A DNA stretch of 64,000 bases from NCBI GenBank assembly GCA_903825575.1, contig CAIKAW010000006.1, positions 34,168 through 98,167 of the forward strand, given 5' to 3'. The stretch's first letter is position 1. Each line of letters opens with the position of its first letter. The notes beneath the pieces are model-generated. The model made no database searches, was not told the origin of the DNA, and saw nothing but the letters and a program-made list of their open reading frames with translations. Made by a program: the position numbers and the translations under genes. This document shows, piece by piece, positions 3,322 through 37,230 of this stretch. Source of the stretch: an uncultured bacterium. Lineage in GTDB: Bacteria; Actinomycetota; Actinomycetes; S36-B12; CAIKAW01.

Positions 3322-3324
3322 AAG

Positions 3325-3597
3325 ATGTGTCTAGGCGTGCCGGGCCGGATCGATAAGATCTGGCAAGGAGACGGAGTCAGGATGGCAGCTGTCGACTTCG
3401 GGGGTGTGCGCAAGGAAGTATGCCTAGAGTTTCTACCGGACATTGAAGTCGGCGACTACACGATCGTTCACGTCGGTTTCGCCCTGACGAAACTGGATGA
3501 GAAGTCAGCCCTTGAAACGCTTGAGTTGATGCGAAGCGTCGGGCTCTTGGACGAAGAGTTCGGACTGGTCGCCGACCCGAATGAGGGACTCCGATGA
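3325..3597 (+). CDS. hypC: Hydrogenase assembly chaperone HypC/HupF
   Basis: 90 aa with the N-terminal MCLGVPGRI motif (essential Cys2). Lies between hypF and hypD. Confidence 0.9.
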
Positions 3598-4697
3598 AGT
3601 ATCTCGACGAGTTCGGTGATCCGGCAATCGCACGAGCCTTGCTTGACGACATCGCTCGAATCGTCACCAAGCCTTGGGCGATCATGGAGATCTGTGGCGG
3701 CCAGACTCACACGATCATCCGCAATGGGATCGATCAGTTGCTGCCAGGCGGTATCGAGTTAATCCATGGCCCCGGTTGTCCGGTATGCGTGACTCCACTC
3801 GAGACGATCGATCGGGCGATGGCGATAGCAGCGCTCCCTGGCGTGATCTTTGCCTCATTCGGCGACATGATTCGGGTCCCTGGATCGTCGGTGGACCTAT
3901 TCCAGATCAAAGCCAGCGGAGGCGATGTGCGCATTGTCTACTCGCCTTTAGATGCGGTTCGGATAGCGCAAGCCAATCCGGATAAGCAGGTGGTCTTCTT
4001 CGGTATCGGTTTCGAAACGACGGCCCCGGCTAATGCAATGACAGTTCAACTTGCCAAGCAACTCGGGTTACGCAATTTCTCGTTGCTCGCCTCCCACGTA
4101 CTTGTACCGCCAGCGATAACTGCGATTTTGGATTCACCGAGGCGGCGAGTACAAGGCTTTCTTGCCGCGGGGCATGTTTGCACTGTCATGGGTATGGGCG
4201 AGTACTTGCCATTGGTCGAGAAGTACCACGTGCCTATCGTCGTAACGGGGTTCGAGCCGCTCGATGTTCTGCAAGGGATTCGGATGGTGCTCGTGCAACT
4301 GGAGTCCGGACGGGCCGAGCTCGAGAACGCCTATCCTCGGGCTGTGTCGGCCGAAGGCAATCTTGCCGCGCAGGCAGTTGTTCGCGACGTCTTCACTGTT
4401 TGTGATCGTGCCTGGCGCGGAATCAGCGTGATTCCCGACTCCGGTTGGCGGGTTGCTGATAAGTACGCGGAATTCGACGCCGAACTTCGCTTCGACGTGT
4501 CGGATATCAAGGCCACTGAGTCACCGCTCTGCCATTCCGGTGAGGTTTTGCAAGGATTTCTTAAGCCCAATCAGTGCCCCGCATTTGGCCAAGAGTGCAC
4601 TCCCCGAAAACCTCTAGGGGCACCGATGGTCTCCAGCGAAGGTGCTTGCGCCGCGTACTACCACTTCCGGCGCATCCAGACTCCGGCTACTGCATGA
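3594..4697 (+). CDS. hypD: Hydrogenase formation protein HypD
   Basis: 367 aa with [18 protein letters not shown] and GFETTAP motifs and a C-terminal Cys cluster. ATGA overlap with the hypC stop. Confidence 0.95.
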
Positions 4698-5764
4698 GCG
4701 ATCGACCAGATCTCGAGAATTGGTCCTGCCCGCTCCCGCTTCGTGACCATCCAAACGTTGTGATGGGTCACGGTGGCGGCGGTCGATTGTCGGCTGAACT
4801 AGTTGAGCATTTGCTGTTGCCGGCCTTCGCCGGAACCCATGATGCCGACGTACTCAATCAACTAGGCGATGCTGCCGTGCTGTCCTTGTCCGGCCGGCGA
4901 GTTGCCTTTTCGACGGATTCCTATGTGGTGCAGCCCAGATTCTTCCCCGGCGGAAACATCGGTGACCTCGCCGTGAACGGGACCATTAACGATCTAGCAG
5001 TGTCTGGCGCCGTGCCGCTCGCGCTGTCGGTTGGACTCATCTTGGAAGAGGGCTTGGCATTAAGTGAGTTGGCGTTCATCGCAAACACAATGGGCATGGC
5101 TGCGCGCCGGGCTGGGGTATCGATCGTTACGGGGGATACCAAGGTCGTCGATTTCGGGCACGGAGACGGGGTCTACATCAACACATCAGGAATCGGGGTC
5201 GTACCTGCCGGGGTCGACCTTGGGCCCCACCGAGTGACTCCCGGAGACGCCGTAATCGTGTCCGGTGTTATTGGTCGACATGGGGTGGCTGTGCTCAGCG
5301 TTCGTGAGGGTTTGGAATTCGGCTCGGATATCTGCACCGACACCGTGCCTTTGAATGGCTTGGTCCACGACTTGCTCGGTTCTGGCGTTGAGGTCCACAT
5401 GATGCGCGACCCAACCCGCGGTGGGGTGGCCGCGACGCTAAATGAGATCGCCACGTCGGCGCGGGTGGGCGTAGAGATCGTCGAGCGCAACGTGCCGGTA
5501 CCTGATGACGTCCGGGCCGCATGTGGCTTCCTTGGTCTTGACCCTTTGTATGTGGCCAACGAAGGTTGTTTGGTTGCCTTCGTGTCCGCTGCCGATGCCG
5601 ACCAAGCCATCGCGGTCATGCGCAACCATGAGTTTGGTCGGGACGCGACGTTAATCGGCTACGTGACGGGCGACCATGTTGGAACTGTCGTGGCCCGGAC
5701 CTCCATCGGTGGCCAACGAGTGGTCGATCTTCCGTTAGCTGAGCAACTGCCGAGGATCTGTTAG
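4694..5764 (+). CDS. hypE: Hydrogenase expression/formation protein HypE (carbamoyl dehydratase)
   Basis: The ORF-track start at 4574 would overlap hypD by 124 nt. The internal ATG at 4694 overlaps the hypD stop (ATGA) and gives [18 protein letters not shown]-synthase-like fold. C-terminus ends LPRIC, the PR(I/V)C motif. Confidence 0.9.
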
Positions 5765-5782
5765 CGGGATGGATTGCGTTAC

Positions 5783-6592
5783 TTAGACGTCCCACCACAA
5801 AGTCGCCAACTCGCGCCGGGCATTTTGGTCGGACGACGCCATCGCCGCAGCCACTTCAGCTTCGCGTTCCGCAGGCAGGCAGAGGCGAATTCGCATGAAG
5901 TGGGCTTGCTTCTCGAGCGTCAGTGGCACTCGAGTCGAAAAGTCCTCATCTGGCCAAACTTCTAGATTTGCTTCGATGCCGGCTTCACGCGCGACAGCCA
6001 GCGCGTCAGCGGCGGATGGCGCCAAGGGGCGGTCCACGTTCCAGAAATGCTTCCAAAGTGGCGACATGCGCGTGAGTGGATGTACGACTGGAAGTTCGAG
6101 CACAACGCGGTGCCTAGCGTGCTGACCCAAGCGCAGCAGGAACGGGCCCAATTCCGGAACGTTGTAGACGACGTGGTGGCACACCACGACATCGGCTTCC
6201 GGCGCCCGATCGGCCGCTTCCGGCCAGTCGCCCAGCACCTGTTCGTGGACAAGACCGCGCTCTCGGGCGGCAGCTGCGAACTGCTGCAGCATCTCGGCCT
6301 GGTGGTCGATTCCAACGACGAGACCAGCTCGGTCTGCCAGAGCCAGCGCGGCTCGGCCTCCACCACAGCCCACATCCAAAACGCTTCCGCCCTCAGGTAG
6401 GGCCTCACGGGCCCTCCGATGGGAAGGTGAGTCGGGGATCGCTCCAGTCACGGTGAATATCTCAGGCGGGTGAATCCATGGCGATTGGGGGGCTTGCGCG
6501 AGAATTTCGGCGGGTATTGCCCAGGCGGCTAGGTCTGAACGCCACTTCTTTGAGGCTGCAGTCACGATCGACACGCTAGTTGAGGCGATCAC
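5783..6592 (-). CDS. Class I SAM-dependent methyltransferase
   Basis: 269 aa with SAM-binding motif I, VLDVGCGGGRAALALA. Convergent with hypE. Confidence 0.7.
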   Translation of the reverse strand: MIASTSVSIVTAASKKWRSDLAAWAIPAEILAQAPQSPWIHPPEIFTVTGAIPDSPSHRRAREALPEGGSVLDVGCGGGRAALALADRAGLVVGIDHQAEMLQQFAAAARERGLVHEQVLGDWPEAADRAPEADVVVCHHVVYNVPELGPFLLRLGQHARHRVVLELPVVHPLTRMSPLWKHFWNVDRPLAPSAADALAVAREAGIEANLEVWPDEDFSTRVPLTLEKQAHFMRIRLCLPAEREAEVAAAMASSDQNARRELATLWWDV

Positions 6593-6648
6593 GCCCTACG
6601 CAGCGGGTAGTGTCTCTCGAACTTGCCGGCAACGAATTCAGGTGACTC

Positions 6649-7680
6649 ATGGAACCCCTAGAAGGCCTTCCCGGCGAAGGATCAGCCAGCGCCCCGCACG
6701 CTGATTCGATTGCCCGGACTCGGCTCTACCGCGGCGGCCACCTGGCGGCCGAACATTTCGCGGTGATGGAGATATCCGAACTCCTAGCTGATCCAGACAC
6801 CTTCGTCTGGGTGGACCTACTGGCACCTGAAGCGCACGATTTGGCGCTGATCGGCGAGGAACTTGGCCTGCACAAACTGGCGATTGCAGATGCGGTTGGG
6901 GTCCGCCAACGTCCAAAACTTGATCGCTACGCCACGCACGAGTTCCTCAACATGTATGCAGCGAAGCTGGACCGCACCACGGGTGAGTTGTCGCTGAGTG
7001 AGTTATCTGCCTTTATTACTCCTCGAGCCTTGGTTACCGTGCGAAAAGACAAGTCCTTTGATATCTCCGCGGTCGTACAACGTTGGGACTCTTCGCAAGA
7101 CCTTGCCATAAATGGCGTCGGCTTTCTGCTGCACGGACTGGTAGACCAAGTGGTCGATGGGCATTTCGAGGTTGTCCAGGATCTCGATGATGAGATAGAG
7201 AAACTCGAAGACCTGCTGTTCGACGAGCGCCAGCACGACTCAGAAGTTCAACGGCGCAGCTTCGAACTGCGAAAATCGCTGGTTACCTTACGTCGGGTTG
7301 TGTTGCCGATGCGCGAAGTCGTAAATGCGCTAATGCGACGCGACGTGGAATTGGTCGATGCTGCGATGATGCCCTACTACCAGGATGTTTACGACCACGT
7401 TTTGCGGGCGTCTGAATGGACGGAATCGCTGCGCGATCTGGTCACCACGATCCTGGAGACCAACCTCACCTTGCAAGGCAACCGGCTGAACGTGATTACC
7501 AAACAGGTAACCAGTTGGGCTGCGATTATTGCCGTGCCAACTGCAATCACCGGGTTCTATGGCCAGAACTTGCCATATCCTGGTTTCGGCACGACAAGTG
7601 GCTTGTTGTGGTCGTGCGGCCTAATCGCTGGTATGTCGGTTGTGTTGTACATAGTCTTCAAGCGCAAGAACTGGCTCTAA
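6649..7680 (+). CDS. corA: CorA-family divalent cation transporter (non-canonical GQN motif)
   Basis: 343 aa. CorA-like cytoplasmic domain and two C-terminal TM helices, with loop motif FYGQNLPYPGF in the place of the usual YGMNF. Confidence 0.8.
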   Translation: MEPLEGLPGEGSASAPHADSIARTRLYRGGHLAAEHFAVMEISELLADPDTFVWVDLLAPEAHDLALIGEELGLHKLAIADAVGVRQRPKLDRYATHEFLNMYAAKLDRTTGELSLSELSAFITPRALVTVRKDKSFDISAVVQRWDSSQDLAINGVGFLLHGLVDQVVDGHFEVVQDLDDEIEKLEDLLFDERQHDSEVQRRSFELRKSLVTLRRVVLPMREVVNALMRRDVELVDAAMMPYYQDVYDHVLRASEWTESLRDLVTTILETNLTLQGNRLNVITKQVTSWAAIIAVPTAITGFYGQNLPYPGFGTTSGLLWSCGLIAGMSVVLYIVFKRKNWL

Positions 7681-17509: not shown

Positions 17510-18201
17510 TGACCAAGATCCTTGTGGTCGAAGATGAGCCCGACATCTTCCAGGCCGTGCAAGCGATTCTGCAGCGACGCAATTTCGAGGTTGTAATGGC
17601 GGAAGACGGCCCGACCGCGTTACGACTGTTCTACGACATTCGACCCGACTTGATCATTCTTGATTTGGGACTTCCGGTGGTCGACGGTTGGCATGTGCTT
17701 TCTCGAATCCGTGATTTTGCCAACGTGCCGGTTATCATTCTGACGGCCGCTGGCCGCGATGAAGACAAGGTGCGAGGCTTGCGTTCTGGGGCCGATGACT
17801 ATCTGACCAAGCCGTTCTCCAATTCCGAATTGGTGGCTCGGGTGGAGGCATTGCTTCGACGCGCTGGAGACCCGCATTGGACCCAGCCGGAATTTGGCGA
17901 TGGCCAGTTGGTCATTTCGCCCGGTCGTCGGACCGTCACGGTAGACGGATTAGATGTGGCTCTGACGCCATTGGAGTTTCGGCTGCTATCAGTTTTGGTT
18001 CGAAACGCAGGCCAACTTCTCGGAGTTGAGCAGTTGCTTTCGCTGGTCTGGGAGGATTCCAGCGGTATTGGAGCCGAGCGTGTGAAGTACACAATCTTGA
18101 GACTACGACGCAAACTTGGTTGGGATGACCCCTCGTCGTCACCGATTGAGTCTGTTCGCGGTGCTGGCTATCGCTACAAATCGGTCCGAAGCGGCAGCTG
18201 A
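17509..18201 (+). CDS. OmpR/PhoB-family response regulator
   Basis: 230 aa. Receiver domain (KILVVEDEPD, LIILDLGLP, LTKPF) plus a winged-helix C-terminus (LTPLEFRLLSVL...VRGAGYRY). Its GTG overlaps the kinase TAG by 1 nt. Confidence 0.9.
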   Translation: MTKILVVEDEPDIFQAVQAILQRRNFEVVMAEDGPTALRLFYDIRPDLIILDLGLPVVDGWHVLSRIRDFANVPVIILTAAGRDEDKVRGLRSGADDYLTKPFSNSELVARVEALLRRAGDPHWTQPEFGDGQLVISPGRRTVTVDGLDVALTPLEFRLLSVLVRNAGQLLGVEQLLSLVWEDSSGIGAERVKYTILRLRRKLGWDDPSSSPIESVRGAGYRYKSVRSGS

Positions 18202-19262
18202 TGTCCAATAATCAGGACCTTGAACGGATCGCACGCATTCTGGTCGTGGAAGACGACGATGACCAGCGGACGTACCTCATGCATGTGCTTCGCCGCCTTG
18301 GCAACCTTGAACCGATCGGCGTCGGCGACCCTGAATCAGCGCTGGAACTGTTAGCAAATGAACACTGGGATCTACTCATAACCGACCTGATCTTGCCTGG
18401 ACGCAACGGGTTGAATCTGGCCGATGAGGCTCAGGAACACCACGGCGGTCTTCCGGTAATTGTCGTGACTGCGCACCCATCGTTTGAGACTGCGGTCGAA
18501 GCGGTGCGGGCCGGCGTCAGCGATTTCCTAGTCAAGCCCCTCGATGCTGACCGCCTGCTGGCTGCCGTTGACCGGGCGCTATCGGGTTTTCACCGAGTAA
18601 CTTCGCGGGTCCTTGCTATTGGCGCTCATCCAGACGACGTCGAACTCGGTTGCGGTGGGGCTTTGGCTCTACATCGAATCCACGGTGACGAGATAACGAT
18701 CTTGACGATGAGCCAAGGCGCTGAAACCCCGGACCTTGAACATCGGCTCAAGCAAGCTGCGCTGTCCGCGCAGCGACTGGGAGCCACCCTGATCATGCAC
18801 ACTCTTCGGGAAACGATGATCGCGGAGTCACCAACGGTAGATGAACTAATCGCCGCTGCGATCAGTGAGATCCGCCCAGACACGGTTTACGTGCACACAC
18901 CCCAAGACGTTGTAACCGACCACCGAGCTGTGAATGCAAGCACCCGCCGGGTGGCCCGAGCTGTGCCTAGATTGCTTTGCTATCAATCGCCTTCCTCGAC
19001 TGTGGATTTTCACCCGGTTGAGTTCATCGGAATCGATAATGGACTCGATTCGAAGCTAGGCGCATTGGGAGCATTCTTGGAAGCGGCCCCAGACCGCGAA
19101 TACCTGTCGCCTGAAATGGTTCGCGCAACAGCACGCTACTGGGGGCGGTTCGCGTCGGCGAAGTACGCCGAGCCATTTGAGGTAGTGCGGGACCGATTGG
19201 ACCGTCGTACGGATCGACTGGATTTGCCCGTCGGGCGTCCCACTCGCGCCGGGCGCGGCTGA
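18201..19262 (+). CDS. Response-regulator receiver domain fused to a PIG-L/LmbE-family deacetylase domain
   Basis: 353 aa. The N-terminus has ILVVEDDDD, DLLITDLILPG, VIVVTAH and FLVKP. The C-terminus has VLAIGAHPDDVELGCGG and a later TDH. Its ATG overlaps the upstream TGA (TGATG). Confidence 0.8.
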   Translation: MSNNQDLERIARILVVEDDDDQRTYLMHVLRRLGNLEPIGVGDPESALELLANEHWDLLITDLILPGRNGLNLADEAQEHHGGLPVIVVTAHPSFETAVEAVRAGVSDFLVKPLDADRLLAAVDRALSGFHRVTSRVLAIGAHPDDVELGCGGALALHRIHGDEITILTMSQGAETPDLEHRLKQAALSAQRLGATLIMHTLRETMIAESPTVDELIAAAISEIRPDTVYVHTPQDVVTDHRAVNASTRRVARAVPRLLCYQSPSSTVDFHPVEFIGIDNGLDSKLGALGAFLEAAPDREYLSPEMVRATARYWGRFASAKYAEPFEVVRDRLDRRTDRLDLPVGRPTRAGRG

Positions 19263-19277
19263 AACGAGCTAACCAGA

Positions 19278-21011
19278 GTGTTGCTCCGATTGCTTGGGCC
19301 AAGACTTCGGCCTTACCGAGGGACCGTCGTCGTGATTGTTTCTCTGCTGCTGCTCCAAGCGATCGGGAACCTCTACCTGCCGACGCTTAACGCAGACCTG
19401 ATAAACAACGGTGTTATCCGCAGCGACCTGGCCTATGTTTGGCGTGCGGGACAGCAAATGCTGCTGGTTGTTATAGCTATTGCGGTTGTCTCATTCGCCG
19501 GAGTCTGGCTCTCCTCACGCGTTGCGATGGCGGTGGGACGGGATTTGCGTAAGGAGGTTTTCGACTCCGTACTCGATTTTGCAGAAGACGAATTCGCCAA
19601 TTTCGGTAGCGCTTCGTTGATCACCCGCAACACGAACGACGTCCAACAGATTCTCAATTTCGTACAGGTTGCCCTAACCGTCATGGTGCTTGCGCCGATC
19701 CAAGCAATTGGTGGGATCTTCATGGCGATGCGCCAAGATTTGCGACTCTCGACTCTATTGGCCGTGGCGGTCCCACTATTGGCCGTAGTAATTGGCGTTG
19801 TTATGGCGCGAGCGGTGCCACTGTTTCGAACACTCCAGGTCAGGATTGATGCAGTCAATCGGGTCCTGCGAGAGCAGATTACGGGTATTCGAGTCATCCG
19901 AGCTTTCGCGCGGGAAGACTTCGAGACGCAGCGCTTCGAGAAGGTCAATCGAGATTTGACGAGCAATGCCCTCGGGGTGAATCGACTGTTTGTCGTTGCG
20001 ATGCCGGCCATGATGCTGATTCTCAACATCTCGACGGTGTCTGTGATCTGGTTCGGTGGGCACCTCGTTGAGCGAGGTCAATTGCAGATTGGAACCCTCT
20101 CCGCCTTCCTCAGTTACATCATGCAGATTCTGGTATCTGTGCTGATGGCTGTAATGGTCATCATTCTCGTCCCGCGTGCGAGTGCTAGTGCAGAGCGGAT
20201 TGCGGCGGTCCTGGCCGTAGTCCCGAGCATCAGTGACCCCGTCAACGCTGTGGTTCCTGGGCAACCGAGAGGAGGGGTGGAATTCCGGTCGGTCTCGTAC
20301 AGGTATCCGGGTGCGGCAGACGCTGTGGTTGCCGACATTTCATTGCTGATTGAAGCCGGATGTTTTACGGCGATAGTCGGGTCAACCGGATCCGGGAAGA
20401 CGACCCTGCTGAACTTGATTCCGCGGCTGACTGATGCTTCGACTGGTTTGGTGCTAGTGGACGGGATTGACGTCCGCCAACAAGGACGCAATGCCTTGTG
20501 GTTCGGGATTGGTCTGGTGCCACAGCGGCCGTACCTATTTGCCGGCACCGTAGCCGACAACGTACGGCTAGGCGCCGACTCGGCTTCCGACGAAGATGTT
20601 TGGTGGGCTCTGGAGGTGGCTCAGGCGCGGGATTTTGTGGTTGAACTCCCTGGCCAACTTCAGGCCAACGTCTCCCAAGGTGGGGGTAACTTTTCCGGCG
20701 GCCAGCGCCAGCGGCTAGCCATCGCCAGAGCGGTCGTTCGTCGACCGCGGCTATACCTGTTCGACGATAGTTTCGCTTCGTTAGATGCCCAAACCGATGC
20801 GAATTTGCGCGCTGCGTTGCTTCGGGAATTATCGGGTTCGACAGTTGTCGTAGTGGCTCAGCGAATCAGCACCATCCTTGATGCCGACCGAATTGTCGTA
20901 CTTGAGGCGGGTCGGGTAGTTGGGGTTGGAACGCACGGTGAGTTGCTCGAGTTGTCGGCGGTTTATCAGGAGATTGTTGTCTCACAACTGGGTCCGGTGG
21001 CAAGGTCATGA
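19278..21011 (+). CDS. ABC exporter, fused permease/ATPase (half-transporter 1)
   Basis: 577 aa. Six-TM exporter domain, Walker A GSTGSGKTT, signature FSGGQRQRLAIARA and Walker B LYLFDDSFASLD. Confidence 0.9.
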   Translation: MLLRLLGPRLRPYRGTVVVIVSLLLLQAIGNLYLPTLNADLINNGVIRSDLAYVWRAGQQMLLVVIAIAVVSFAGVWLSSRVAMAVGRDLRKEVFDSVLDFAEDEFANFGSASLITRNTNDVQQILNFVQVALTVMVLAPIQAIGGIFMAMRQDLRLSTLLAVAVPLLAVVIGVVMARAVPLFRTLQVRIDAVNRVLREQITGIRVIRAFAREDFETQRFEKVNRDLTSNALGVNRLFVVAMPAMMLILNISTVSVIWFGGHLVERGQLQIGTLSAFLSYIMQILVSVLMAVMVIILVPRASASAERIAAVLAVVPSISDPVNAVVPGQPRGGVEFRSVSYRYPGAADAVVADISLLIEAGCFTAIVGSTGSGKTTLLNLIPRLTDASTGLVLVDGIDVRQQGRNALWFGIGLVPQRPYLFAGTVADNVRLGADSASDEDVWWALEVAQARDFVVELPGQLQANVSQGGGNFSGGQRQRLAIARAVVRRPRLYLFDDSFASLDAQTDANLRAALLRELSGSTVVVVAQRISTILDADRIVVLEAGRVVGVGTHGELLELSAVYQEIVVSQLGPVARS

Positions 21012-22975
21012 GCGGGTTCGGCGGAGGGCAACGGGGTCCTGGACCTGGTGGTCGTGGGCCGATGGGTGGAGGCCCAATGGGCCCTCCGGGAGCCGCTACC
21101 GCACCAAGGCTGGTCTTGCGCCAACTCCTTGGAAACCTCAAGGTGGAGCGACCGGTAATGCTGGCGGCGCTCGCCTTGAATGCCGTTGGGGTGCTCTTGA
21201 CCATCAGCGGACCGCGGTTGCTCGGCCACGCGACCAATATCGTCTTTGAGGGAATCGTCGGCAAGCGGTTGCCGACCGGTATGTCTAAGAGTCAGGTGCT
21301 TGCACACCTGAGGGCTACCGGTCAGGGAAGACTTGCTGATCTGCTTGGCCCGATGAACGTGATACCGGGCGCAGGGGTGAATTGGTCGGCATTCCGTACG
21401 TCGATTGTCGTGGTGTTAGCTGCCTACTTGCTCGGCTCGGTCTTCAGTTGGGCGCAGGGCTACTTGTTGGCCGGGGTCGCACAACGCACCGTCGCCAAAC
21501 TTCGAACCGATGTGGAGACAAAGATTCATCGAGTGCCGCTGTCCTACCTCGACAGTCAAGAGCGCGGCGAACTGCTCTCCCGCGTTACCAACGACATCGA
21601 CAACATTGGCACCACCTTGCAGCAGGGGATGGGGCAACTGCTCAATTCAGTCCTGACAATCATTGGCGTCATCGGGCTGATGTTCTGGATCAGTCCGCTA
21701 CTAGCCGCTATTTCCTTGCTAGTGCTGCCGGCTTCGGGATTGGTCACTTGGTTGATCGCGCGGCGGTCGCAGCGCGAGTTCTCTGACCAATGGGCGAGAA
21801 CCGGTCGACTCAACGCCCACGTCGAAGGCGTTCACAGCGGGCATACGATCATTCAAGTTTTCGGGGCAACGCAACACGCCAAAGCCGCCTTCGACGAGCA
21901 AAACCAGGCCCTGTACCACGCGAGTTTCCGTGCCCAAGTGCTTTCCGGGATTGTCCAACCGGCGATGGGTTTCATTGGCTACCTGCACTTCGTCGCCATC
22001 GCCGTCATTGGCGGTTATCGCGTCGCGGCCGGTGGCCTGCTCTTAGGTGACCTTCAAGCTTTCATCCAGTATTCGAGGACGTTCACCATGCCGATCACTC
22101 AGATCGCGTCGCAACTAAACCTGCTGCAATCTGGTCTGGCTTCGGCGGAGCGAGTCTTTGACCTACTGGATGCACCAGAAGAAGTGGAGTTGGAAGGGGC
22201 ACCTGAAATCGAGCTGTCTAACCTTGGCCAGATCTCATTCGACGGTGTGGACTTCGCGTATCGGGAAGCCGAGCCGGTCATCACCGGACTAGATCTGGTG
22301 ATTGAGCGAGGCCAAACGATCGCCATCGTTGGGCCGACGGGAGCCGGTAAGACGACACTCGTCAATTTGCTGCTGCGCTTCTATGACGTCTCGGCCGGAT
22401 CGATTCGGATCGATGGAATAGACATCAGGACTCTTCCGCGCAAGCAATTGCGACAGATTTACGCCATGGTGCTGCAGGAAACTTGGCTATTTGCTGGAAC
22501 CATCCGGGAGAACGTTGCCTATGGGCGGCTCGGAGCGAGCGATGCGGAGATATTGGACGCGTGCAGAGCCGCCCGGGTCGATCGCTTTGTCCGAACCCTT
22601 CCAGCTGGCCTAGACACCGTAATAGACGAGTCGGCCGAGAACATCTCATCCGGCGAGAAGCAACTAATCACGATTGCTCGGGCTTTCCTTGCAGACCCCA
22701 GCGTTCTGATCCTGGACGAAGCGACCAGCAATGTTGATACCCGAACCGAAGTGGTGATTCAGGAGGCAATGTCGCAGTTAAGGCATGGCCGGACAAGTTT
22801 CGTGATTGCCCACCGACTCTCGACGATCAGAGGTGCGGACCTGATCGTTGTGCTTGACCACGGCCGGGTTGTGGAGGCCGGTCGCCACGAAGAGCTTCTC
22901 TTGGCCGAGGGGGCATACCACCGCTTGTACGCCCGTCAATTCAGTGGCAGCCGAGATTCAGCCGACTGGCTGTAA
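21008..22975 (+). CDS. ABC exporter, fused permease/ATPase (half-transporter 2) with a Gly/Pro-rich N-terminal extension
   Basis: 655 aa. Walker A GPTGAGKTT, signature SSGEKQLITIARA and Walker B ILDEATSNVD. ATGA overlap with the upstream gene. N-terminus is MSGFGGGQRGPGPGGRGPMGGGPMGPPGAATAP. Confidence 0.9.
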   Translation: MSGFGGGQRGPGPGGRGPMGGGPMGPPGAATAPRLVLRQLLGNLKVERPVMLAALALNAVGVLLTISGPRLLGHATNIVFEGIVGKRLPTGMSKSQVLAHLRATGQGRLADLLGPMNVIPGAGVNWSAFRTSIVVVLAAYLLGSVFSWAQGYLLAGVAQRTVAKLRTDVETKIHRVPLSYLDSQERGELLSRVTNDIDNIGTTLQQGMGQLLNSVLTIIGVIGLMFWISPLLAAISLLVLPASGLVTWLIARRSQREFSDQWARTGRLNAHVEGVHSGHTIIQVFGATQHAKAAFDEQNQALYHASFRAQVLSGIVQPAMGFIGYLHFVAIAVIGGYRVAAGGLLLGDLQAFIQYSRTFTMPITQIASQLNLLQSGLASAERVFDLLDAPEEVELEGAPEIELSNLGQISFDGVDFAYREAEPVITGLDLVIERGQTIAIVGPTGAGKTTLVNLLLRFYDVSAGSIRIDGIDIRTLPRKQLRQIYAMVLQETWLFAGTIRENVAYGRLGASDAEILDACRAARVDRFVRTLPAGLDTVIDESAENISSGEKQLITIARAFLADPSVLILDEATSNVDTRTEVVIQEAMSQLRHGRTSFVIAHRLSTIRGADLIVVLDHGRVVEAGRHEELLLAEGAYHRLYARQFSGSRDSADWL

Positions 22976-23093
22976 GAGTCACCCAGACGGCTGAATATCT
23001 CTGGTGGGGACCATGACTCGGGGTTTACCGCCCCTTAACGCCGGCCGATCTAACCTTCGTATTGACAGTTTCCAACTAGCTGGGGGTTCCAAA

Positions 23094-23954
23094 GTGACAT
23101 CATTCGTTCGCCGGGCGGCCATTGCCGCCGTAACCACGACTGCCGTGGTGGCGCTAGGGATGGCTGCTCCAGCCGTCGCTTCTGCTTCCACCGGCCATTC
23201 GGCCATCCACAAGATTGCCGCCCACCACGCTCCGGTCGCCCTTACCGCTGACCAGCAGACATTGGTTAGCGCCTTGGCGGCTGACAAAGCTGCAGCGAAG
23301 ACCGCGATCAAGGCTGCAAAGCAAGCTTTCAACGCAGATGCCGCAGTGGTGGCTGCTAAGGCCGCCCGCGACGCGGCATTTGCAGCAGCCGTCAGCCAGT
23401 CGGACTTCCTGACCGCATTGCAGGCGTACGACGCTGCCACCTCCGCTGCGGCAGCCACCCGTGACGCCGCAATCCAGGCAGCCAAGGACGCCCAGTGGGC
23501 GGCCGATGACGCTGCTTTCGTGGTCTACGACACCGCGACCACACCGGCTACCCAAGCCGATCGTGAGACGTACAGGCAGGCCGTGCACGCGGCTGACCTA
23601 GCCAAAGCTGTAGCTAACGCCGCCGCCAAGGCCACCTTCCGGACCAACACGCTGGGCGCAAAAGCTCAGTTGCTGGCCGACATGAAGGCCGCAGCCGGCG
23701 ATGACACAGCAATGGATGCAGCTGAGGCTGCTTTCCGCACCGCCACCGCAGCCGACCGCGCCACGCTGAAGGCAGCGTTGGCCGCCGACTGTGCGACCGC
23801 CAAGGCTGCTAAGGACGCTGCCGTTGCGGCGTACGAGGCCAGCACCGGCGAAACCTCGGCCCCGACGTACCCGTTCCTGCGTCATGGGCATGGGCATGGG
23901 CATGGCCATGGCCATGGGCACGGTCATGGTCACGGTCACGGTCACGGTCACTGA
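23094..23954 (+). CDS. Secreted alanine-rich protein with a C-terminal (His-Gly)n tail
   Basis: GTG at 23094 is preceded by ctggggg and gives a Sec-type signal, VTSFVRRAAIAAVTTTAVVALGMAAPAVA|SAS. The track start at 23004 is an alternative. The body is Ala/Lys/Asp-rich and predicted helical. It ends RHGHGHGHGHGHGHGHGHGHGHGH. Confidence 0.7.
   Translation: MTSFVRRAAIAAVTTTAVVALGMAAPAVASASTGHSAIHKIAAHHAPVALTADQQTLVSALAADKAAAKTAIKAAKQAFNADAAVVAAKAARDAAFAAAVSQSDFLTALQAYDAATSAAAATRDAAIQAAKDAQWAADDAAFVVYDTATTPATQADRETYRQAVHAADLAKAVANAAAKATFRTNTLGAKAQLLADMKAAAGDDTAMDAAEAAFRTATAADRATLKAALAADCATAKAAKDAAVAAYEASTGETSAPTYPFLRHGHGHGHGHGHGHGHGHGHGHGH
23883..23951 (+). repeat. Coding dipeptide repeat: 23 residues of alternating His-Gly (12 His, 11 Gly)
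   Basis: cat ggg cat ggg cat ggg cat ggc cat ggc cat ggg cac ggt cat ggt cac ggt cac ggt cac ggt cac, followed by TGA. Synonymous codons vary along the repeat. Confidence 0.95.
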
Positions 23955-23966
23955 GATATAGCAAGG

Positions 23967-23998
23967 CAAGGGCCCCAGCCGTTCGGCTGGGGCCCTTG
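23967..23998. terminator. Putative bidirectional intrinsic terminator hairpin (14-bp perfect stem, GTTC loop)
   Basis: caagggccccagcc-gttc-ggctggggcccttg lies between convergent genes ending at 23954 (+) and 24058 (-). There is no clear U-tract on either side. Confidence 0.65.
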
Positions 23999-24057
23999 CG
24001 TATTGGCTTGTCCCGGAGCCTATTCCGCCGGGTCAGGCCTGAGTCGTAGGCGCGAAG

Positions 24058-33622: not shown

Positions 33623-34527
33623 GGTGAACCATCCGCGAGTTCTACAGCTACTTCCGCTGCGAATTTCGCGTTGCGTAGCACCAGTTTCACGTTGGCAGTC
33701 AGAGTCGCGCCATGCGTTGCTTCGTGGAAGTAAGCCAACAGGAATGGCGTAACGTCTCCACCTTCAACTCCGGTTCGCTTGGCCTCGGCCAACCCTTGCA
33801 GTAGAACCTGGTCGTGGACCGACGGTTCGATCGCATCTTCGGCAGGCAGGGGGAGGGCGGCGACAATGGCGGGTTGAAGACCTAGTGAGGTGCGCGCGCG
33901 CCAGATGTCGGCGACTTCGCGGGCTGAATCCACGCGCCAAGGGACCGGTTGCCCTGAATCGCGCAGATAGAAGCCGGGGAACCGATGGGTGCCTACGCCC
34001 AGCACAACCACGCCGAGCGTTTCAAGCCGTTCTAAGGTCGCGGGGACATCAAGGATCGACTTAACCCCCGCGCACACAACGACCATGGGAGTTTGAGCCA
34101 GTGCGTGCAGATCAGCGCTTTCGTCGTAAGCCACTCGGTGCACGCCACCGAGCCCACCGGTGGCAAATACCGCAATTCCGGCCCGATGGGCGATCGCGGC
34201 GGTCGATGCCACGGTGGTGGATCCACAGACTCCCCGGGCAATAAGGACTCCGAGGTCTCGGGTCGATGCCTTAACGATTGCCTCGTTGCGGGCGAGGATG
34301 AGCAATTCTGGCGGTGTCAGGCCCACGTGAATCACGCCATCGAGGACCGCAATCGTCGCTGGCACGGCACCGCCGTCTCGAACAGCCTGCTCGATCTCTT
34401 GGCCAATTCGCTCGTTATCCGGGCGCGGCAGGCCGTGACTGATGATCGTGGATTCCAGCGCGACGATTGGCTTGCCAGTGGACAGCGCGGCGTCGACTTC
34501 GGGGGAAAGGCAGAACGGGGTGGCCAT
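33619..34527 (-). CDS. psuG: Pseudouridine-5'-phosphate glycosidase
   Basis: IndA/PsuG-like sequence (VALESTIISHGLPRPDN..., FATGGLGGVHR). Start trimmed to the ATG at 34527 (MATPFCLSPEV); the 354-aa track ORF has an implausible N-terminal extension. Confidence 0.85.
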   Translation of the reverse strand: MATPFCLSPEVDAALSTGKPIVALESTIISHGLPRPDNERIGQEIEQAVRDGGAVPATIAVLDGVIHVGLTPPELLILARNEAIVKASTRDLGVLIARGVCGSTTVASTAAIAHRAGIAVFATGGLGGVHRVAYDESADLHALAQTPMVVVCAGVKSILDVPATLERLETLGVVVLGVGTHRFPGFYLRDSGQPVPWRVDSAREVADIWRARTSLGLQPAIVAALPLPAEDAIEPSVHDQVLLQGLAEAKRTGVEGGDVTPFLLAYFHEATHGATLTANVKLVLRNAKFAAEVAVELADGSP

Positions 34528-34566
34528 GACCACACACGTTACGGGGCGGATAGATACGGTTGGCAC

Positions 34567-37230
34567 GTGGGCACCGACGAGTACCCGGCACAGTGGGAGG
34601 CGGACGTCGTCCTCCGCGACGGCAGCACCGCTCATGTTCGCCCAATTAGGCCCGATGATGGCCCGGGTTTGGTTGAGTTCCATTCTCGGCTCTCACCTGA
34701 AACCATCTACTTCCGGTTCTTTGCGCCGTACCCGCAATTATCCGAGCGCGATGTCAAGCGGTTCACGAACGTGGACTACACAGATCGTGTCGCATTGGTT
34801 GCGTTGGTCGGGTCGGAGTTTGTAGGGGTAACTCGGTACGACCGAATAGCACAGACATCCGCCGAAGTGGCCTTCACGATTCGAGACGACTATCAAGGTT
34901 ATGGCTTGGGATCTGTGCTTCTGGAGCACATTGCTATGGCCGCCCGTGAACGTGGCATTGAAACTTTTGTTGCCGAAGTGCTGCCAAGCAATCGGCGCAT
35001 GCTTGCAGTTTTTGTTGATGCTGGCTACACCACCAAGCAAGAGTTCGACGACGGCGTAATCAGCATGCAGTTTCGAATCGAGCCCACCGCTGCATCGCGT
35101 GCAGTACTAGAGGACCGCGAGCATCGTTCCGAAGCCAAGTCAATCCAGCGACTGATCGCCCCAGAATCTGTAGCGGTGGTGGGAGCTAGCCGGACGCCCG
35201 GGGCGGTGGGACACGAAATGCTGCGGCACTTGATCGCATCAGGGTTCACCGGACCGATCTACCCCATCCATCCATCCGCTGAGCAAGTGCTCGGACTGCC
35301 TGCCTTCCGCAGCGTCAGCCAAGCCCCCGGCCAAGTCGACCTGGCCATTGTTGCTGTGCCCGCTGCCCGGGTTTTAGAGGTAGTTGAGGATTGCGCCAGC
35401 GCAGGCGTTAAGGGGTTGGTCGTAGTTTCGACCGGATTTGGCGAGTCCGGCTCTGATGGTGGTCATCTCCAACGTGAACTGGTGAGTCTTGCCCGCGGTA
35501 GCGGGATGCGGGTCGTTGGACCGGCGTGTTTGGGGTTAATCAACACTGATCAGCAGGTCCGACTCAACGCATCGCTGGCTCCGATTCAGCCGCTCCCGGG
35601 CAAGATTGGCTTCTTCTGCCAGACGGGCTCTCTTGGTGCGACGATCCTTGACGCCGTGCGCCGCCACGGTCTGGGTTTGTCCACGTTTGTAAGCGCAGGT
35701 AACCGGGCCGATGTCAGTGCCAACGACTTGCTGCAGTACTGGCAGGAGGATCCGGCAACCGACGTTGTGCTCTTGTACCTGGAGAGCCTGGGCAATCCAC
35801 GAAAGTTCACGCGGGTCGCACGTCGCCTTGCTGCCGTCAAACCGATCGTGGCGGTCCGGACTGCGCGAAACACTCAGGCCTACCCACTCGGAGACCGCAT
35901 TCGGCGGACTTCGTTAACGCCGGCGGCCGTCGATGCGCTCTTTGCTCGCGCTGGGATTATTCAAACCGACACGCTTCAGGAGTTATTCGATGTAGCCGGG
36001 CTGCTGGCGTGCCAAGACTTACCCGAAGGCGATTCGGTTGCGGTGATTGGAAATTCCACTGCGTTGGCAGTGCTTGCGGCGGCGGCCTGTGAGGGAGCAG
36101 GACTGCGAGTGGTGGGCGAGCCGATGATCTTGCCGGTGGATGCCACTGGCGAATTGGTGGCTGCACAACTAGCAGCAGTTCTGGCCGACGCCAACGTGCA
36201 TTCGGTCCTACTTTTGCATGTGCCACCACTGGGTGGTGCGGATGATCAAGTGAGGACCGCATTAATCGCCGCATCCATCGGATCGCACAAACCTCTAATT
36301 GCGGTGCTCCCCGCAGCCGGTGAGGCCGCGCGATTGCTAGTCGTTCCCGATGAATCTGGTGCGGCAGGGGCGGGTTCGGTCCCGGCCTTTTCGGATATTG
36401 AAAGCGCAGTGCGCGCCTTGACCCAACTAACTGGCTATTCCGATTGGTTACGCACTCCGCGTGGGCAGACACCGGAGTTTGCCGACGTCGATACAGTTCG
36501 GGCCCGCGAATTGATCGAGGCGTGGATGTCGGAGGGTTCTGGCCTTGGCCAGTTGCCTCCAGATCGCGCGGCGCAGTTGCTGGGTTGCTACGGAATTGAC
36601 GTGTGGCCGCAGTTACCGGCTGCCGACGAAGACGAAGCGGTGCACCAGGCGACGACGTTGGGATACCCGGTGGTGCTGAGGACTCAGGTTCCGGAACTGA
36701 GCCAGCGCGGCGATCTGGGGGGAGTCCGCCTCAATCTTGAAAATGAACGGGCAGTTCGGACAGCTTTTCGCTCAATGCTGGCGAAATTGGACGTTGTTGC
36801 GGCCGGCAGGCTTGCGGTTCAGAAGCTGGCACCACTGGGCGTCGCGTGTGTTGTGGCTTCGGTCGAGGACGAACTTTTCGGCCCCGTCGTTTCGTTTCGG
36901 GTTGGAGGGGTCGTCACGGCATTACTTGACGACCGGGCGTATGCGGTGCCTCCGATCACTGACCTTGATGCTCGTGATCTCGTCCGGGCGCCTGGGGCCG
37001 CCCCAATGTTGACCGGCGCCACTGGCGGCGACGCGGTGGATCTTGGTCGGCTTGAAGACCTCGTGCTGCGGATCGGACGGCTAGCTGAAGACTTGCCTGA
37101 GGTGGCGTCCCTTGACCTAGATCCGGTGGTTGTATCGGGACACGGGCTGGCTGTTTTGGGTGCTGACCTCCGGTTAGGTGAGCCTCGCACGCGGGCGACC
37201 GAGGCTCGCAAGCTTCCTGCTTCGCTTTGA
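34567..37230 (+). CDS. Bifunctional GNAT acetyltransferase / ADP-forming acyl-CoA synthetase-like protein (Pat-type protein acetyltransferase)
   Basis: The 1045-aa track ORF overlaps psuG on the opposite strand. GTG at 34567 gives an N-terminal GNAT domain (FTIRDDYQGYGLGSVLLEHI), then a CoA-binding domain (VAVVGASRTPGAVGHEML), a ligase-CoA domain and an ATP-grasp domain. The start is approximate. Confidence 0.75.
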   Translation: MGTDEYPAQWEADVVLRDGSTAHVRPIRPDDGPGLVEFHSRLSPETIYFRFFAPYPQLSERDVKRFTNVDYTDRVALVALVGSEFVGVTRYDRIAQTSAEVAFTIRDDYQGYGLGSVLLEHIAMAARERGIETFVAEVLPSNRRMLAVFVDAGYTTKQEFDDGVISMQFRIEPTAASRAVLEDREHRSEAKSIQRLIAPESVAVVGASRTPGAVGHEMLRHLIASGFTGPIYPIHPSAEQVLGLPAFRSVSQAPGQVDLAIVAVPAARVLEVVEDCASAGVKGLVVVSTGFGESGSDGGHLQRELVSLARGSGMRVVGPACLGLINTDQQVRLNASLAPIQPLPGKIGFFCQTGSLGATILDAVRRHGLGLSTFVSAGNRADVSANDLLQYWQEDPATDVVLLYLESLGNPRKFTRVARRLAAVKPIVAVRTARNTQAYPLGDRIRRTSLTPAAVDALFARAGIIQTDTLQELFDVAGLLACQDLPEGDSVAVIGNSTALAVLAAAACEGAGLRVVGEPMILPVDATGELVAAQLAAVLADANVHSVLLLHVPPLGGADDQVRTALIAASIGSHKPLIAVLPAAGEAARLLVVPDESGAAGAGSVPAFSDIESAVRALTQLTGYSDWLRTPRGQTPEFADVDTVRARELIEAWMSEGSGLGQLPPDRAAQLLGCYGIDVWPQLPAADEDEAVHQATTLGYPVVLRTQVPELSQRGDLGGVRLNLENERAVRTAFRSMLAKLDVVAAGRLAVQKLAPLGVACVVASVEDELFGPVVSFRVGGVVTALLDDRAYAVPPITDLDARDLVRAPGAAPMLTGATGGDAVDLGRLEDLVLRIGRLAEDLPEVASLDLDPVVVSGHGLAVLGADLRLGEPRTRATEARKLPASL

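What the first reader, a model, noticed from the sequence alone, without database searches (positions are those of the whole stretch)
23094..23954. Secreted alanine-rich helical protein ending in a 23-residue perfect (His-Gly)n tail
A Sec-type signal peptide (cleavage near AVA|SAS) is followed by about 230 residues dominated by Ala with periodic Lys/Asp/Thr. This suggests long amphipathic or coiled-coil helices. The exact C-terminus is HGHGHGHGHGHGHGHGHGHGHGH. Twelve imidazoles at strict i/i+2 spacing form a strong candidate site for Ni, Zn, Cu or Co binding outside the cytoplasm. The His and Gly codons vary (CAT/CAC; GGG/GGC/GGT), which points to selection on the peptide rather than recent DNA slippage. 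The gene sits directly after the HK/RR/deacetylase/ABC operon and ahead of a strong hairpin. Any link to that operon, or to the Ni-dependent hyp genes about 17 kb away, is speculation.
Basis: partly seen in the sequence, partly recalled or inferred. Interest (0 to 1): 0.55.

Follow-up and report, generated by a model that had tools for sequence, protein, structure and literature searches.

The report
Exported helical protein with variable His-Gly tail
A real, conserved gene of an uncultured lake actinobacterium encodes an exported four-helix protein whose C-terminal His-Gly tail changes length between strains but always stays histidine-rich, so it is most likely a metal-binding tail on a member of an unnamed protein family.

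Summary
Window 23094-23954 (+) encodes a 286-aa protein with a signal peptide, a 38%-Ala helical body and an exact (HG)11H C-terminus.

The gene is real:
- dN/dS against a syntenic orthologue is 0.15-0.26.
- The identical product occurs on at least 7 independent metagenome contigs.

It belongs to an unnamed family with 55 cluster representatives and no Pfam, NCBIfam or PDB match. Members share a signal peptide (often twin-arginine) and a roughly 200-residue core made of two duplicated helical hairpins. Their disordered ends are about ten times richer in His than the core.

The tail behaves as a hexanucleotide microsatellite. Near-identical strains carry (HG)11H or (HG)9H, and one product is six residues shorter. 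A diverged orthologue instead ends in HGHGHDHGHDHGGFGHGHDHGGFGHGH. The next relatives carry R[G/A]CxCGGG[D/E] at the same place. The sequence drifts, but the ligand-rich character is kept.

My best reading, at moderate confidence, is an extracytoplasmic metal-binding protein. It resembles ZraP, SmbP and PacL1 in layout but is not homologous to ZraP or to the Pfam families of all three.

I found no support for links to the ABC genes or to hyp. Which metal it binds, and its physiological role, remain untested.

The parts
23082..23086 (+). Shine-Dalgarno-like GGGGG, 7 nt before the GTG start
   Evidence: Read from the sequence. The orthologue L015 has GGAGG at the same place.
23094..23954 (+). 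Complete coding sequence: 286 aa plus the stop codon
   Evidence: dN/dS against orthologue L015 is 0.26 over codons 1-263 and 0.15 over codons 1-232. The family HMM hits only this ORF in the window, E = 9e-55.
23094..23186 (+). Signal peptide, residues 1-29 or 1-31 (cleavage at AVA|SAS or ASA|STG), with twin arginine R6R7
   Evidence: Sequence inspection. The RR motif is shared by 19 of 35 family members. AF2 pLDDT is below 50 here.
23193..23231 (+). His-rich N-terminal segment of the mature protein, GHSAIHKIAAHHA (4 His in 13 residues)
   Evidence: Across the family, the N flank is 10.8% His against 1.0% in the core.
23247..23540 (+). Helical hairpin repeat 1 (residues 52-149; helices 52-98 and 102-149)
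   Evidence: AF2 pLDDT above 95. hhalign of the first half against the second half gives probability 98.5%, E = 1.8e-15.
23544..23846 (+). Helical hairpin repeat 2 (residues 151-251; helices 151-200 and 204-251)
   Evidence: Conservation shows a 3.65-residue periodicity.
23847..23882 (+). Linker GETSAPTYPFLR between the core and the tail
   Evidence: Conserved TSAPTYPFLR in orthologue L015. It aligns with P-x-Y-x-x-R in P0001, P0003 and L008.
23883..23951 (+). (HG)11H tail, encoded by a hexanucleotide repeat that varies in length between strains
   Evidence: Other alleles: one synonymous SNP at 23906 in L005 and L006; (HG)9H in L019; a product 6 aa shorter in ERZ1426828; and HGHGHDHGHDHGGFGHGHDHGGFGHGH in L015.
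23966..23999 (.). 15-bp GC-rich hairpin between this gene and the convergent DUF7455 gene; likely a bidirectional terminator
   Evidence: dG -38.3 kcal/mol, z = -5.6. It is conserved in L015, with one C-G to G-C compensatory pair.

Best explanation
**What it is.** The gene encodes an exported protein of about 25 kDa once mature. I read it as a high-capacity, moderate-affinity binder of divalent transition metals outside the cytoplasmic membrane.

**Shown**
- The preprotein has an N-terminal signal peptide with a twin arginine.
- The body is predicted with high confidence to be four long helices. They arose by duplication of a two-helix hairpin and have 11/3 periodicity.
- Both ends of the mature protein are predicted to be disordered and are His-rich: 4 His in 13 residues at the N end and 12 His in 23 at the C end.
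- The C-terminal tail is encoded by a CAYGGN repeat that gains and loses units between strains.
- Orthologues and close relatives keep metal-ligand residues (His/Asp, or Cys/Glu/His) at this position even though the sequence changes.

**Inferred**
- Imidazoles at i/i+2 spacing chelate Ni(II), Zn(II), Cu(II) or Co(II). With 2-4 His per ion, that is roughly 3-6 ions per tail.
- The protein therefore buffers, scavenges or hands over metal in the cell envelope, as ZraP or SmbP do in Gram-negative periplasms.
- The helical core supplies solubility, oligomerisation or a partner-binding surface.
- Repeat slippage changes capacity between strains.
- The metal involved, and whether the role is acquisition or detoxification, are not determined.
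For: - **Gene under purifying selection and recurrent in nature.**
- **Tail never lost or frameshifted.** It is intact in five alleles. All differences between repeat units, and the single between-strain SNP in the gene (position 23906), are synonymous.
- **Diverged orthologue L015.** It keeps 11 His in 27 residues, with Asp added.
- **Closest relatives.** P0001, P0003 and L008 end in RGCNCGGGEHI, RGCGCGGGDRL and RACHCGGGERL at the aligned position.
- **Family-wide His distribution.** Among 34 homologues, His is 10.8% of the N flank, 8.5% of the C flank and 1.0% of the core. There are 14 HxH motifs in 2,415 flank residues and none in 7,120 core residues.
- **HGH runs recur in separate branches.** They appear in P0008, P0011, P0014, P0020, P0030, P0060 and P0061.
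- **His after the cleavage site.** Ten family members have His directly after a predicted AxA cleavage site.
- **Disorder.** The tail and the N end have pLDDT below 50.
- **Published chemistry.** G(HG)x peptides bind Cu(II), about 1 uM for four His (bioRxiv 10.1101/2025.03.26.645443). The IRT1 HGHGHGHG loop binds Zn (bioRxiv 10.1101/2024.09.03.611018). Mycobacterial GroEL1 tails such as GHGHGHGHHHH bind Cu(II) (PMC10170517). The PacL1 C-terminal DLHDHDH motif binds Zn (PMC9374683).
Against: - There is no experimental datum for this protein or for any family member.
- No metal transporter, metal-responsive regulator or recognisable metal-regulator operator lies next to the gene in any of the loci inspected.
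- The promoter scan found nothing.
- More distant family members, such as P0023, P0025, P0031 and P0035, have no His-rich flanks. Metal binding therefore cannot be the function of the conserved core.
- The length polymorphism is also what a neutral microsatellite would show.
- The family has no homology to any characterised metal-binding family.
Confidence: 0.5

Rival explanations
1. The tail is a functionally neutral microsatellite. A CAYGGN repeat arose at the disordered C-terminus of a helical envelope protein and expands and contracts by slippage. The protein's function lies wholly in the helical core and has nothing to do with metals.
For: - Near-identical strains differ in unit number.
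- Identical units sit in runs.
- No homologue outside the immediate lineage has a long HG run.
- Distant family members lack His-rich ends.
- Hexamer slippage is in frame by construction, so intact frames alone prove little.
Against: - The diverged orthologue has replaced much of the repeat by point changes and a 27-nt duplication, yet keeps 11 His and adds Asp.
- The next relatives carry a conserved Cys/Gly/acidic motif at the same position.
- All substitutions seen inside the repeat are synonymous. Only 4 of the 18 possible single changes per unit are synonymous.
- His enrichment at both ends recurs across the near clade.
Confidence: 0.2
2. The His-rich ends serve attachment or assembly rather than metal homeostasis. 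Partly protonated or metal-bridged imidazoles would tether the helical protein to anionic cell-wall polymers. Alternatively they would drive pH- or metal-dependent oligomerisation of a structural or chaperone-like envelope protein.
For: - The protein is exported and has no sortase, lipobox or membrane anchor.
- The long-helix core has no enzyme-like features and no fold match.
Against: - There is no direct evidence.
- The Cys-containing tails of the nearest relatives suit metal or disulfide chemistry better than electrostatic tethering.
- This reading overlaps the main explanation, because it still needs metal or proton binding by the tail.
Confidence: 0.15
3. The tail binds haem or another tetrapyrrole, in the manner of a histidine-rich protein. 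Alternatively, the Ala/Thr-rich 11-residue-periodic helices act on ice or on surfaces, and the tail is incidental.
For: - The composition (38% Ala, 10% Thr) and the 11/3 periodicity recall, from my own knowledge, type I antifreeze helices.
- The contigs' record names read like lake-sample codes; the habitat was not checked.
Against: - The conserved positions are Ala, Phe/Tyr, Arg and Asp facing a core, not a Thr ladder.
- There are no haem-related neighbours. The ferrochelatase gene at 43045 is 19 kb away and unrelated in context.
- Neither idea was tested specifically.
Confidence: 0.05

Closest known systems
ZraP (E. coli/Salmonella periplasmic zinc-binding stress protein; Pfam PF13801 Metal_resist, CpxP/Spy-like)
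   Same: - It is an exported, all-helical protein with His/Gly-rich ends.
- E. coli ZraP starts A|HGGHGMW after its signal peptide and ends GGCGGGGHMGMGHW. Compare the family's A|HGH and GRHGWHS N-termini, and its CxCGGG and (HG)n C-termini.
- It lies next to a two-component system.
- It chelates Zn in the envelope (PMC8264917).
   Different: - There is no detectable homology: hhalign probability is 1.7%, and PF13801 does not hit any of 35 family members.
- The protein here is twice as long, with a duplicated hairpin.
- There is no LTxxQ motif.
- The host is an actinobacterium.
- The tail is a long perfect repeat that varies between strains.
PacL1/DUF1490 (PF07371), the actinobacterial partner of the metal-efflux P-ATPase CtpC
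   Same: - It is specific to Actinobacteria.
- The layout is similar: an N-terminal hydrophobic helix, an Ala-rich helical region, a disordered stretch, and a short C-terminal His/Asp metal-binding motif (DLHDHDH) that binds Zn at about 6 uM (PMC9374683).
   Different: - PacL1 is about 90-100 aa, is membrane-anchored with a cytoplasmic body, and is encoded next to a P1B-ATPase.
- Here there is a cleavable-looking signal peptide, a 200-residue core and no P-ATPase anywhere in the window.
- There is no Pfam DUF1490 match.
[quoted passage not shown]
   Same: It is a periplasmic protein that can be purified by Ni(II) affinity chromatography (PMC7137794). From my own knowledge, it is a helical, His-rich protein that binds several divalent ions per molecule.
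   Different: - In SmbP the His residues are spread along the repeats of the helices (from my own knowledge), not concentrated in disordered tails.
- Only one of 35 family members touches PF16785, at E = 0.047, which is chance level.
His-rich C-terminal tails of cytoplasmic metallochaperones and of mycobacterial GroEL1
   Same: These are low-complexity HxH-type tails that bind Cu(II) or Ni(II). GroEL1 tails such as GHGHGHGHHHH occur in Actinobacteria (PMC10170517).
   Different: - Those proteins are cytoplasmic, and the tail is attached to a well-known fold.
- This protein carries an export signal and an uncharacterised core.

Membership tests
ZraP / Metal_resist (PF13801) | Sequence match to the PF13801 or LTxxQ helical-hairpin profile | tested here: not met
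   PF13801 hits E. coli ZraP at 4.8e-23. It hits none of the 35 family members at E <= 0.1. hhalign of the family profile against ZraP gives probability 1.7%.
ZraP / Metal_resist (PF13801) | Export signal, with His/Gly(/Cys)-rich N- and C-terminal segments on the mature protein | tested here: met
   The signal peptide was identified by inspection. His-rich flanks are shown. The ZraP termini were read from the K-12 genome.
ZraP / Metal_resist (PF13801) | Zn-dependent expression through a cognate two-component system, and repression of that system | not testable with these tools
   A histidine kinase and response regulators lie upstream, in both the window and L015. Regulation cannot be read from sequence, and other family members have no such neighbours.
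PacL / DUF1490 (PF07371) | Pfam DUF1490 match | tested here: not met
   No Pfam family hits the window protein at E <= 0.01. PF07371 is not among the 25 families listed for the 35 members at E <= 0.1.
PacL / DUF1490 (PF07371) | Encoded next to a P1B-type ATPase | tested here: not met
   No P-type ATPase domain appears among the window ORFs scanned, nor in the called genes of related loci.
PacL / DUF1490 (PF07371) | C-terminal His/Asp metal-binding motif after a disordered stretch | tested here: met
   The window has (HG)11H. Orthologue L015 has HGHGHDHGHDH.... pLDDT is below 50 in this region.
SmbP (PF16785) | Pfam SMBP match | tested here: not met
   There is no hit for the window protein. 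One of 35 homologues matches at E = 0.047.
Csp copper-storage four-helix bundles | Cys-lined core of a four-helix bundle | tested here: not met
   The whole protein has one Cys. Conserved core positions are Ala, Phe, Tyr, Arg and Asp. The Csp features are from my own knowledge.
Tat-exported proteins | Twin-arginine motif in the n-region followed by a weakly hydrophobic h-region | tested here: inconclusive
   An RR-x-hydrophobic-hydrophobic pattern is present in the window protein and in 19 of 35 members. No Tat-signal model hit was returned by Pfam or NCBIfam. No dedicated predictor was available.
Unnamed family defined here (window protein plus P0001-P0061) | Signal peptide plus a roughly 200-residue duplicated helical-hairpin core, with conserved (Y/F)D-x-AT and ATG motifs closing each hairpin | tested here: met
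   The profile search found 55 representatives at E <= 1e-3 and 11 at E <= 1e-30. The internal duplication is shown. The window ORF scores 9e-55 against the family HMM.

The most novel reading that the evidence does not exclude
The protein would be the founding example of a new, actinobacteria-wide family of exported helical metallochaperones or metal buffers. Its metal-binding capacity would be set by a hypermutable in-frame hexanucleotide repeat. Strains of one lake population would then carry tails with 9 to 12 His, and sister lineages would swap His/Gly, His/Asp or Cys/Gly ligand sets at the same position. That would be a contingency-like way of tuning envelope metal handling to local trace-metal supply.
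Probability: 0.25. Interest if true: 0.65.

Novelty: new variant of a known kind. Interest (0 to 1): 0.42.

Why it matters
- **An uncharacterised family gets a testable function.** If the reading holds, a widespread actinobacterial protein family with no Pfam or NCBIfam match and no named member would have a testable function in extracytoplasmic metal handling. Envelope metal chaperones of the ZraP, CusF or SmbP kind are, to my knowledge, little described in this group.
- **A natural experiment in ligand number.** The strain-level length variation of the ligand array shows how the number of ligands evolves. It could be followed directly in lake metagenome time series against trace-metal data.
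- **A practical use.** The protein is a naturally exported carrier with a built-in affinity tail.
- **If the tail is neutral.** The finding is then an ordinary coding microsatellite on a hypothetical protein.

Tried and rejected
1. **Word-indexed homology searches.** The whole protein and the body alone were swamped by low-complexity candidates and returned only 2 and 5 hits. The exhaustive profile search was needed instead.
2. **Tail-only searches.**
   - A 40-aa query gave no scored hit.
   - The PDB search with the tail gave only noise.
   - I therefore could not measure how common long (HG)n tails are in public proteins.
4. **Conserved partner gene.** A 183-aa gene precedes the homologue in both L009 and L012, but the two proteins are unrelated. 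I rejected this.
5. **Conserved neighbourhood across the family.** I rejected this too.
6. **Functional link to the two ABC exporter genes.** I rejected it because orthologue L015 has lost them.
7. **Link to hypF, hypD and hypE.** The only evidence is that they lie in the same window.
8. **ZraP homology.** Tested and rejected.
9. **Promoter and regulator site upstream.** The consensus scan found none. The only inverted repeat found spans the ABC stop codon.
10. **ATG 23013 as the start codon.** Rejected because of the frame-breaking indel in L015.
11. **Genome and metagenome pattern scans.** Each confirmed only one extra relative.

Full report
**1.

- **ORF.** On the + strand an ORF runs from GTG 23094 to TGA 23952-23954. 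It gives 286 residues and ends in exactly HGHGHGHGHGHGHGHGHGHGHGH.
- **Repeat.** Tandem Repeats Finder reports a 6-nt unit in 11.7 copies at 23881-23950. The units are CATGGG x3, CATGGC x2, CATGGG, CACGGT, CATGGT, CACGGT x3, CAC. Every difference is a synonymous third-position change.
- **Body.** The 231 residues between the signal peptide and the tail are 37.7% Ala, 10% Thr, 8.7% Asp and 6.1% Lys.
- **Upstream.** A PAS histidine kinase, an OmpR-type regulator, a receiver-PIG-L fusion and two ABC exporter genes lie upstream on the same strand.
- **Downstream.** There is a 15-bp hairpin at 23966-23999 (dG -38.3 kcal/mol, z = -5.6). Beyond it lies a convergent DUF7455 gene.
- **hyp genes.** hypF, hypD and hypE are at 1006-5764.

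**2. It is a real gene, and GTG 23094 is its start**

- **Recurrence.** The identical product, as called from ATG 23013, is on at least 7 contigs from several metagenome samples.
  - L003 and L007 are identical to the window across the gene.
  - L005 and L006 differ from the window by 0.16-0.19% over 14-21 kb. Within the gene they show one difference, at 23906: a synonymous GGC/GGG change inside the repeat.
- **Orthologue.** A more diverged syntenic orthologue, L015, was reached through the neighbouring receiver-PIG-L protein.
  - dS is 0.17 and dN/dS is 0.26 over codons 1-263.
  - dN/dS is 0.15 over codons 1-232.
  - The frame is therefore under purifying selection.
- **Start codon.** Upstream of the GTG, L015 has a 1-nt indel that breaks the frame from the ATG the gene callers used. 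It also has GGAGG 7 nt before the GTG. Homologues begin at the equivalent residue.

**3. It belongs to an unnamed family**

- **No known match.** Pfam, NCBIfam and PDB sequence searches find nothing for the window protein.
- **Family size.** An exhaustive profile search finds 55 cluster representatives at E <= 1e-3 and 11 at E <= 1e-30. Full-length members are 250-310 aa.
- **Taxonomy.** The only taxonomic labels recovered are 'Candidatus Nanopelagicales bacterium' (L002) and 'Actinomycetes bacterium'.
- **Predicted structure.** AlphaFold models built with 3 and with 35 sequences agree.
  - Residues 52-251 form four long helices: 52-98, 102-149, 151-200 and 204-251. Core pLDDT is above 95 and pTM is 0.75.
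  - Residues 1-46 and 263-286 have low confidence.
- **Internal duplication.** The two halves of the core match each other (hhalign probability 98.5%, E = 1.8e-15).
- **Periodicity.** Both hydropathy and conservation peak at 3.65 residues. That is 11/3 rather than heptad packing.
- **Fold search.** Foldseek finds no significant PDB neighbour.
- **Signal peptide.** It carries a twin arginine here and in 19 of 35 aligned members. 'Sec-type' is therefore not settled.

**4. What the relatives say about the tail**

*(a) Near-identical strains differ in unit number.*
- L019 has (HG)9H and lacks two CACGGT units.
- A contig in ERZ1426828 encodes a product six residues shorter than the window's (307 against 313 aa as called). 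No DNA was available for it.
- Slippage is therefore recent.

*(b) The diverged orthologue L015 keeps the linker but changes the tail.*
- The linker TSAPTYPFLR is retained.
- The tail is HGHGHDHGHDHGGFGHGHDHGGFGHGH: 11 His, 3 Asp, and its own 27-nt duplication with synonymous differences.

*(c) The next relatives lack His-Gly but keep a ligand motif at the aligned position.*
- These proteins are 44-51% identical to the window protein.
- P0001 ends RGCNCGGGEHI. All 12 full-length or C-terminal members listed from its 22-member cluster contain this motif.
- P0003 ends RGCGCGGGDRL.
- L008 ends RACHCGGGERL.

*(d) His clusters in the flanks across the family.*

| Region (34 homologues, window excluded) | His content |
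|---|---|
| N flank | 10.8% |
| C flank | 8.5% |
| Core | 1.0% |

- There are 14 HxH motifs in the flanks and none in 7,120 core residues. HGH occurs in seven members on different branches.
- Ten members have His directly after a predicted AxA cleavage site.
- The more distant branch, with ...LPF-x-V ends, has no His-rich flanks.

*What this shows.* The exact HG run is private to this lineage and unstable in length. A ligand-rich, glycine-rich, disordered end is a conserved trait of the near clade.

**5. Context**

- **Family neighbourhoods.** Neighbourhoods of family members are unrelated to one another. An apparent conserved 183-aa upstream gene turned out to be a coincidence.
- **ABC genes.** The orthologue L015 lacks both ABC genes. 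It keeps only the last ~70 nt of the second one, plus the inverted repeat that spans its stop codon. The ABC link is therefore dispensable.
- **Two-component genes.** The gene stays downstream of the kinase, regulator and receiver-PIG-L genes in both lineages. That is only two closely related data points.
- **Metal genes.** No P-type ATPase or other metal transporter apart from CorA was found among the window ORFs scanned. Nothing connects the gene to hyp.

**6. Mechanism**

The best-supported reading is an exported helical scaffold with two disordered, His-rich ends that chelate divalent transition metals in the envelope.

The chemistry is established for close sequence analogues:
- G(HG)x peptides bind Cu(II), about 1 uM for four His (bioRxiv 10.1101/2025.03.26.645443).
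- The IRT1 HGHGHGHG loop binds Zn (bioRxiv 10.1101/2024.09.03.611018).
- Mycobacterial GroEL1 tails such as GHGHGHGHHHH bind Cu(II) (PMC10170517).
- The PacL1 DLHDHDH motif binds Zn at about 6 uM (PMC9374683).

What remains inference:
- Binding by this protein, the metal involved, and whether the role is scavenging, buffering or hand-over are all untested.
- The main rival is a neutral coding microsatellite. The evidence in (b) to (d) above weighs against it without excluding it.

**7. Comparison with known systems**

- **ZraP.** It is the closest in how it would work.
  - I read the E. coli K-12 sequence. It starts A|HGGHGMW and ends GGCGGGGHMGMGHW, and it lies next to zraSR.
  - Membership fails. 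PF13801 hits ZraP but none of the 35 family members. Profile comparison gives probability 1.7%.
- **PacL1/DUF1490.** It is an actinobacterial analogue in layout. It differs in size, topology and P-ATPase linkage, and there is no Pfam match.
- **SmbP.** One homologue gives a chance-level hit, E = 0.047.

**8. Verdict**

This is a true and tidy observation. It describes a previously undescribed family member that carries a familiar kind of metal-binding low-complexity tail, here in an extreme and strain-variable form.

I rate it a new variant of a known kind, of moderate interest. Confidence in extracytoplasmic metal binding is about 0.5.

Noticed in passing
window 19278-22975; L015 11063-11287: The two ABC exporter genes between the receiver-PIG-L gene and the His-Gly gene are absent from the syntenic relative L015. 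L015 keeps only about the last 70 nt of the second ABC gene. This is a presence/absence polymorphism caused by deletion.
   Followed up: partly
window 22953-22999: A 20-nt inverted repeat (85% complementary, 7-nt loop; dG -27.7 kcal/mol, z = -2.8) spans the stop codon of the second ABC gene. It is retained almost unchanged in L015 even though the ABC genes are gone there. It may be a terminator, an attenuator or an operator for the downstream gene.
   Followed up: partly
window 13013-33954 compared with L015: Synonymous divergence between the window and L015 is strongly mosaic. dS is 0.02 for topoisomerase IV subunit B, 0.03-0.05 for the PAS and Pyr_redox genes, 0.22-0.54 for the kinase and the two regulators, and 0.57 for the last 31 codons before the tail. 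This suggests recombination breakpoints in and around the gene.
   Followed up: partly
family members P0001, P0003, P0004, P0014, P0015, P0017, P0021, P0032, P0058, P0059 (N-termini): His is the first residue after a predicted AxA signal-peptidase site in ten family members. Several of them read H-x-H. A mature N-terminal His is the hallmark of histidine-brace or ATCUN-type Cu/Ni sites. The window protein itself does not have it.
   Followed up: partly
window 23109-23114 (R6R7) and family signal peptides: A twin-arginine motif of the form [ST]-x-R-R-x-hydrophobic-hydrophobic is present in 19 of 35 aligned family members. Export may therefore go through Tat rather than Sec.
   Followed up: partly
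P0001 cluster, P0003 and L008 2-526 (C-termini): The closest relatives share a conserved C-terminal motif, R-[G/A]-C-x-C-G-G-G-[D/E]-x-[L/I]. It sits where the window protein has its His-Gly tail.
   Followed up: partly
window 18201-19262: One protein fuses a response-regulator receiver domain to a PIG-L (LmbE-type) deacetylase domain. It is encoded directly after an OmpR-type regulator and a PAS histidine kinase.
   Followed up: no
window 1006-7680: hypF (771 aa), hypD and a hypE-like AIR-synthase-type gene lie here, followed by a methyltransferase and a CorA-type transporter. No hydrogenase structural genes were seen among the ORFs scanned.
   Followed up: no
window 34093-37230: A 1045-aa protein combines GNAT acetyltransferase, CoA-binding, succinyl-CoA-ligase-like and ATP-grasp domains. 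It looks like a Pat-type protein acetyltransferase.
   Followed up: no
window 1-64000: There is no tRNA gene and no Rfam family at gathering threshold anywhere in the 64 kb.
   Followed up: yes
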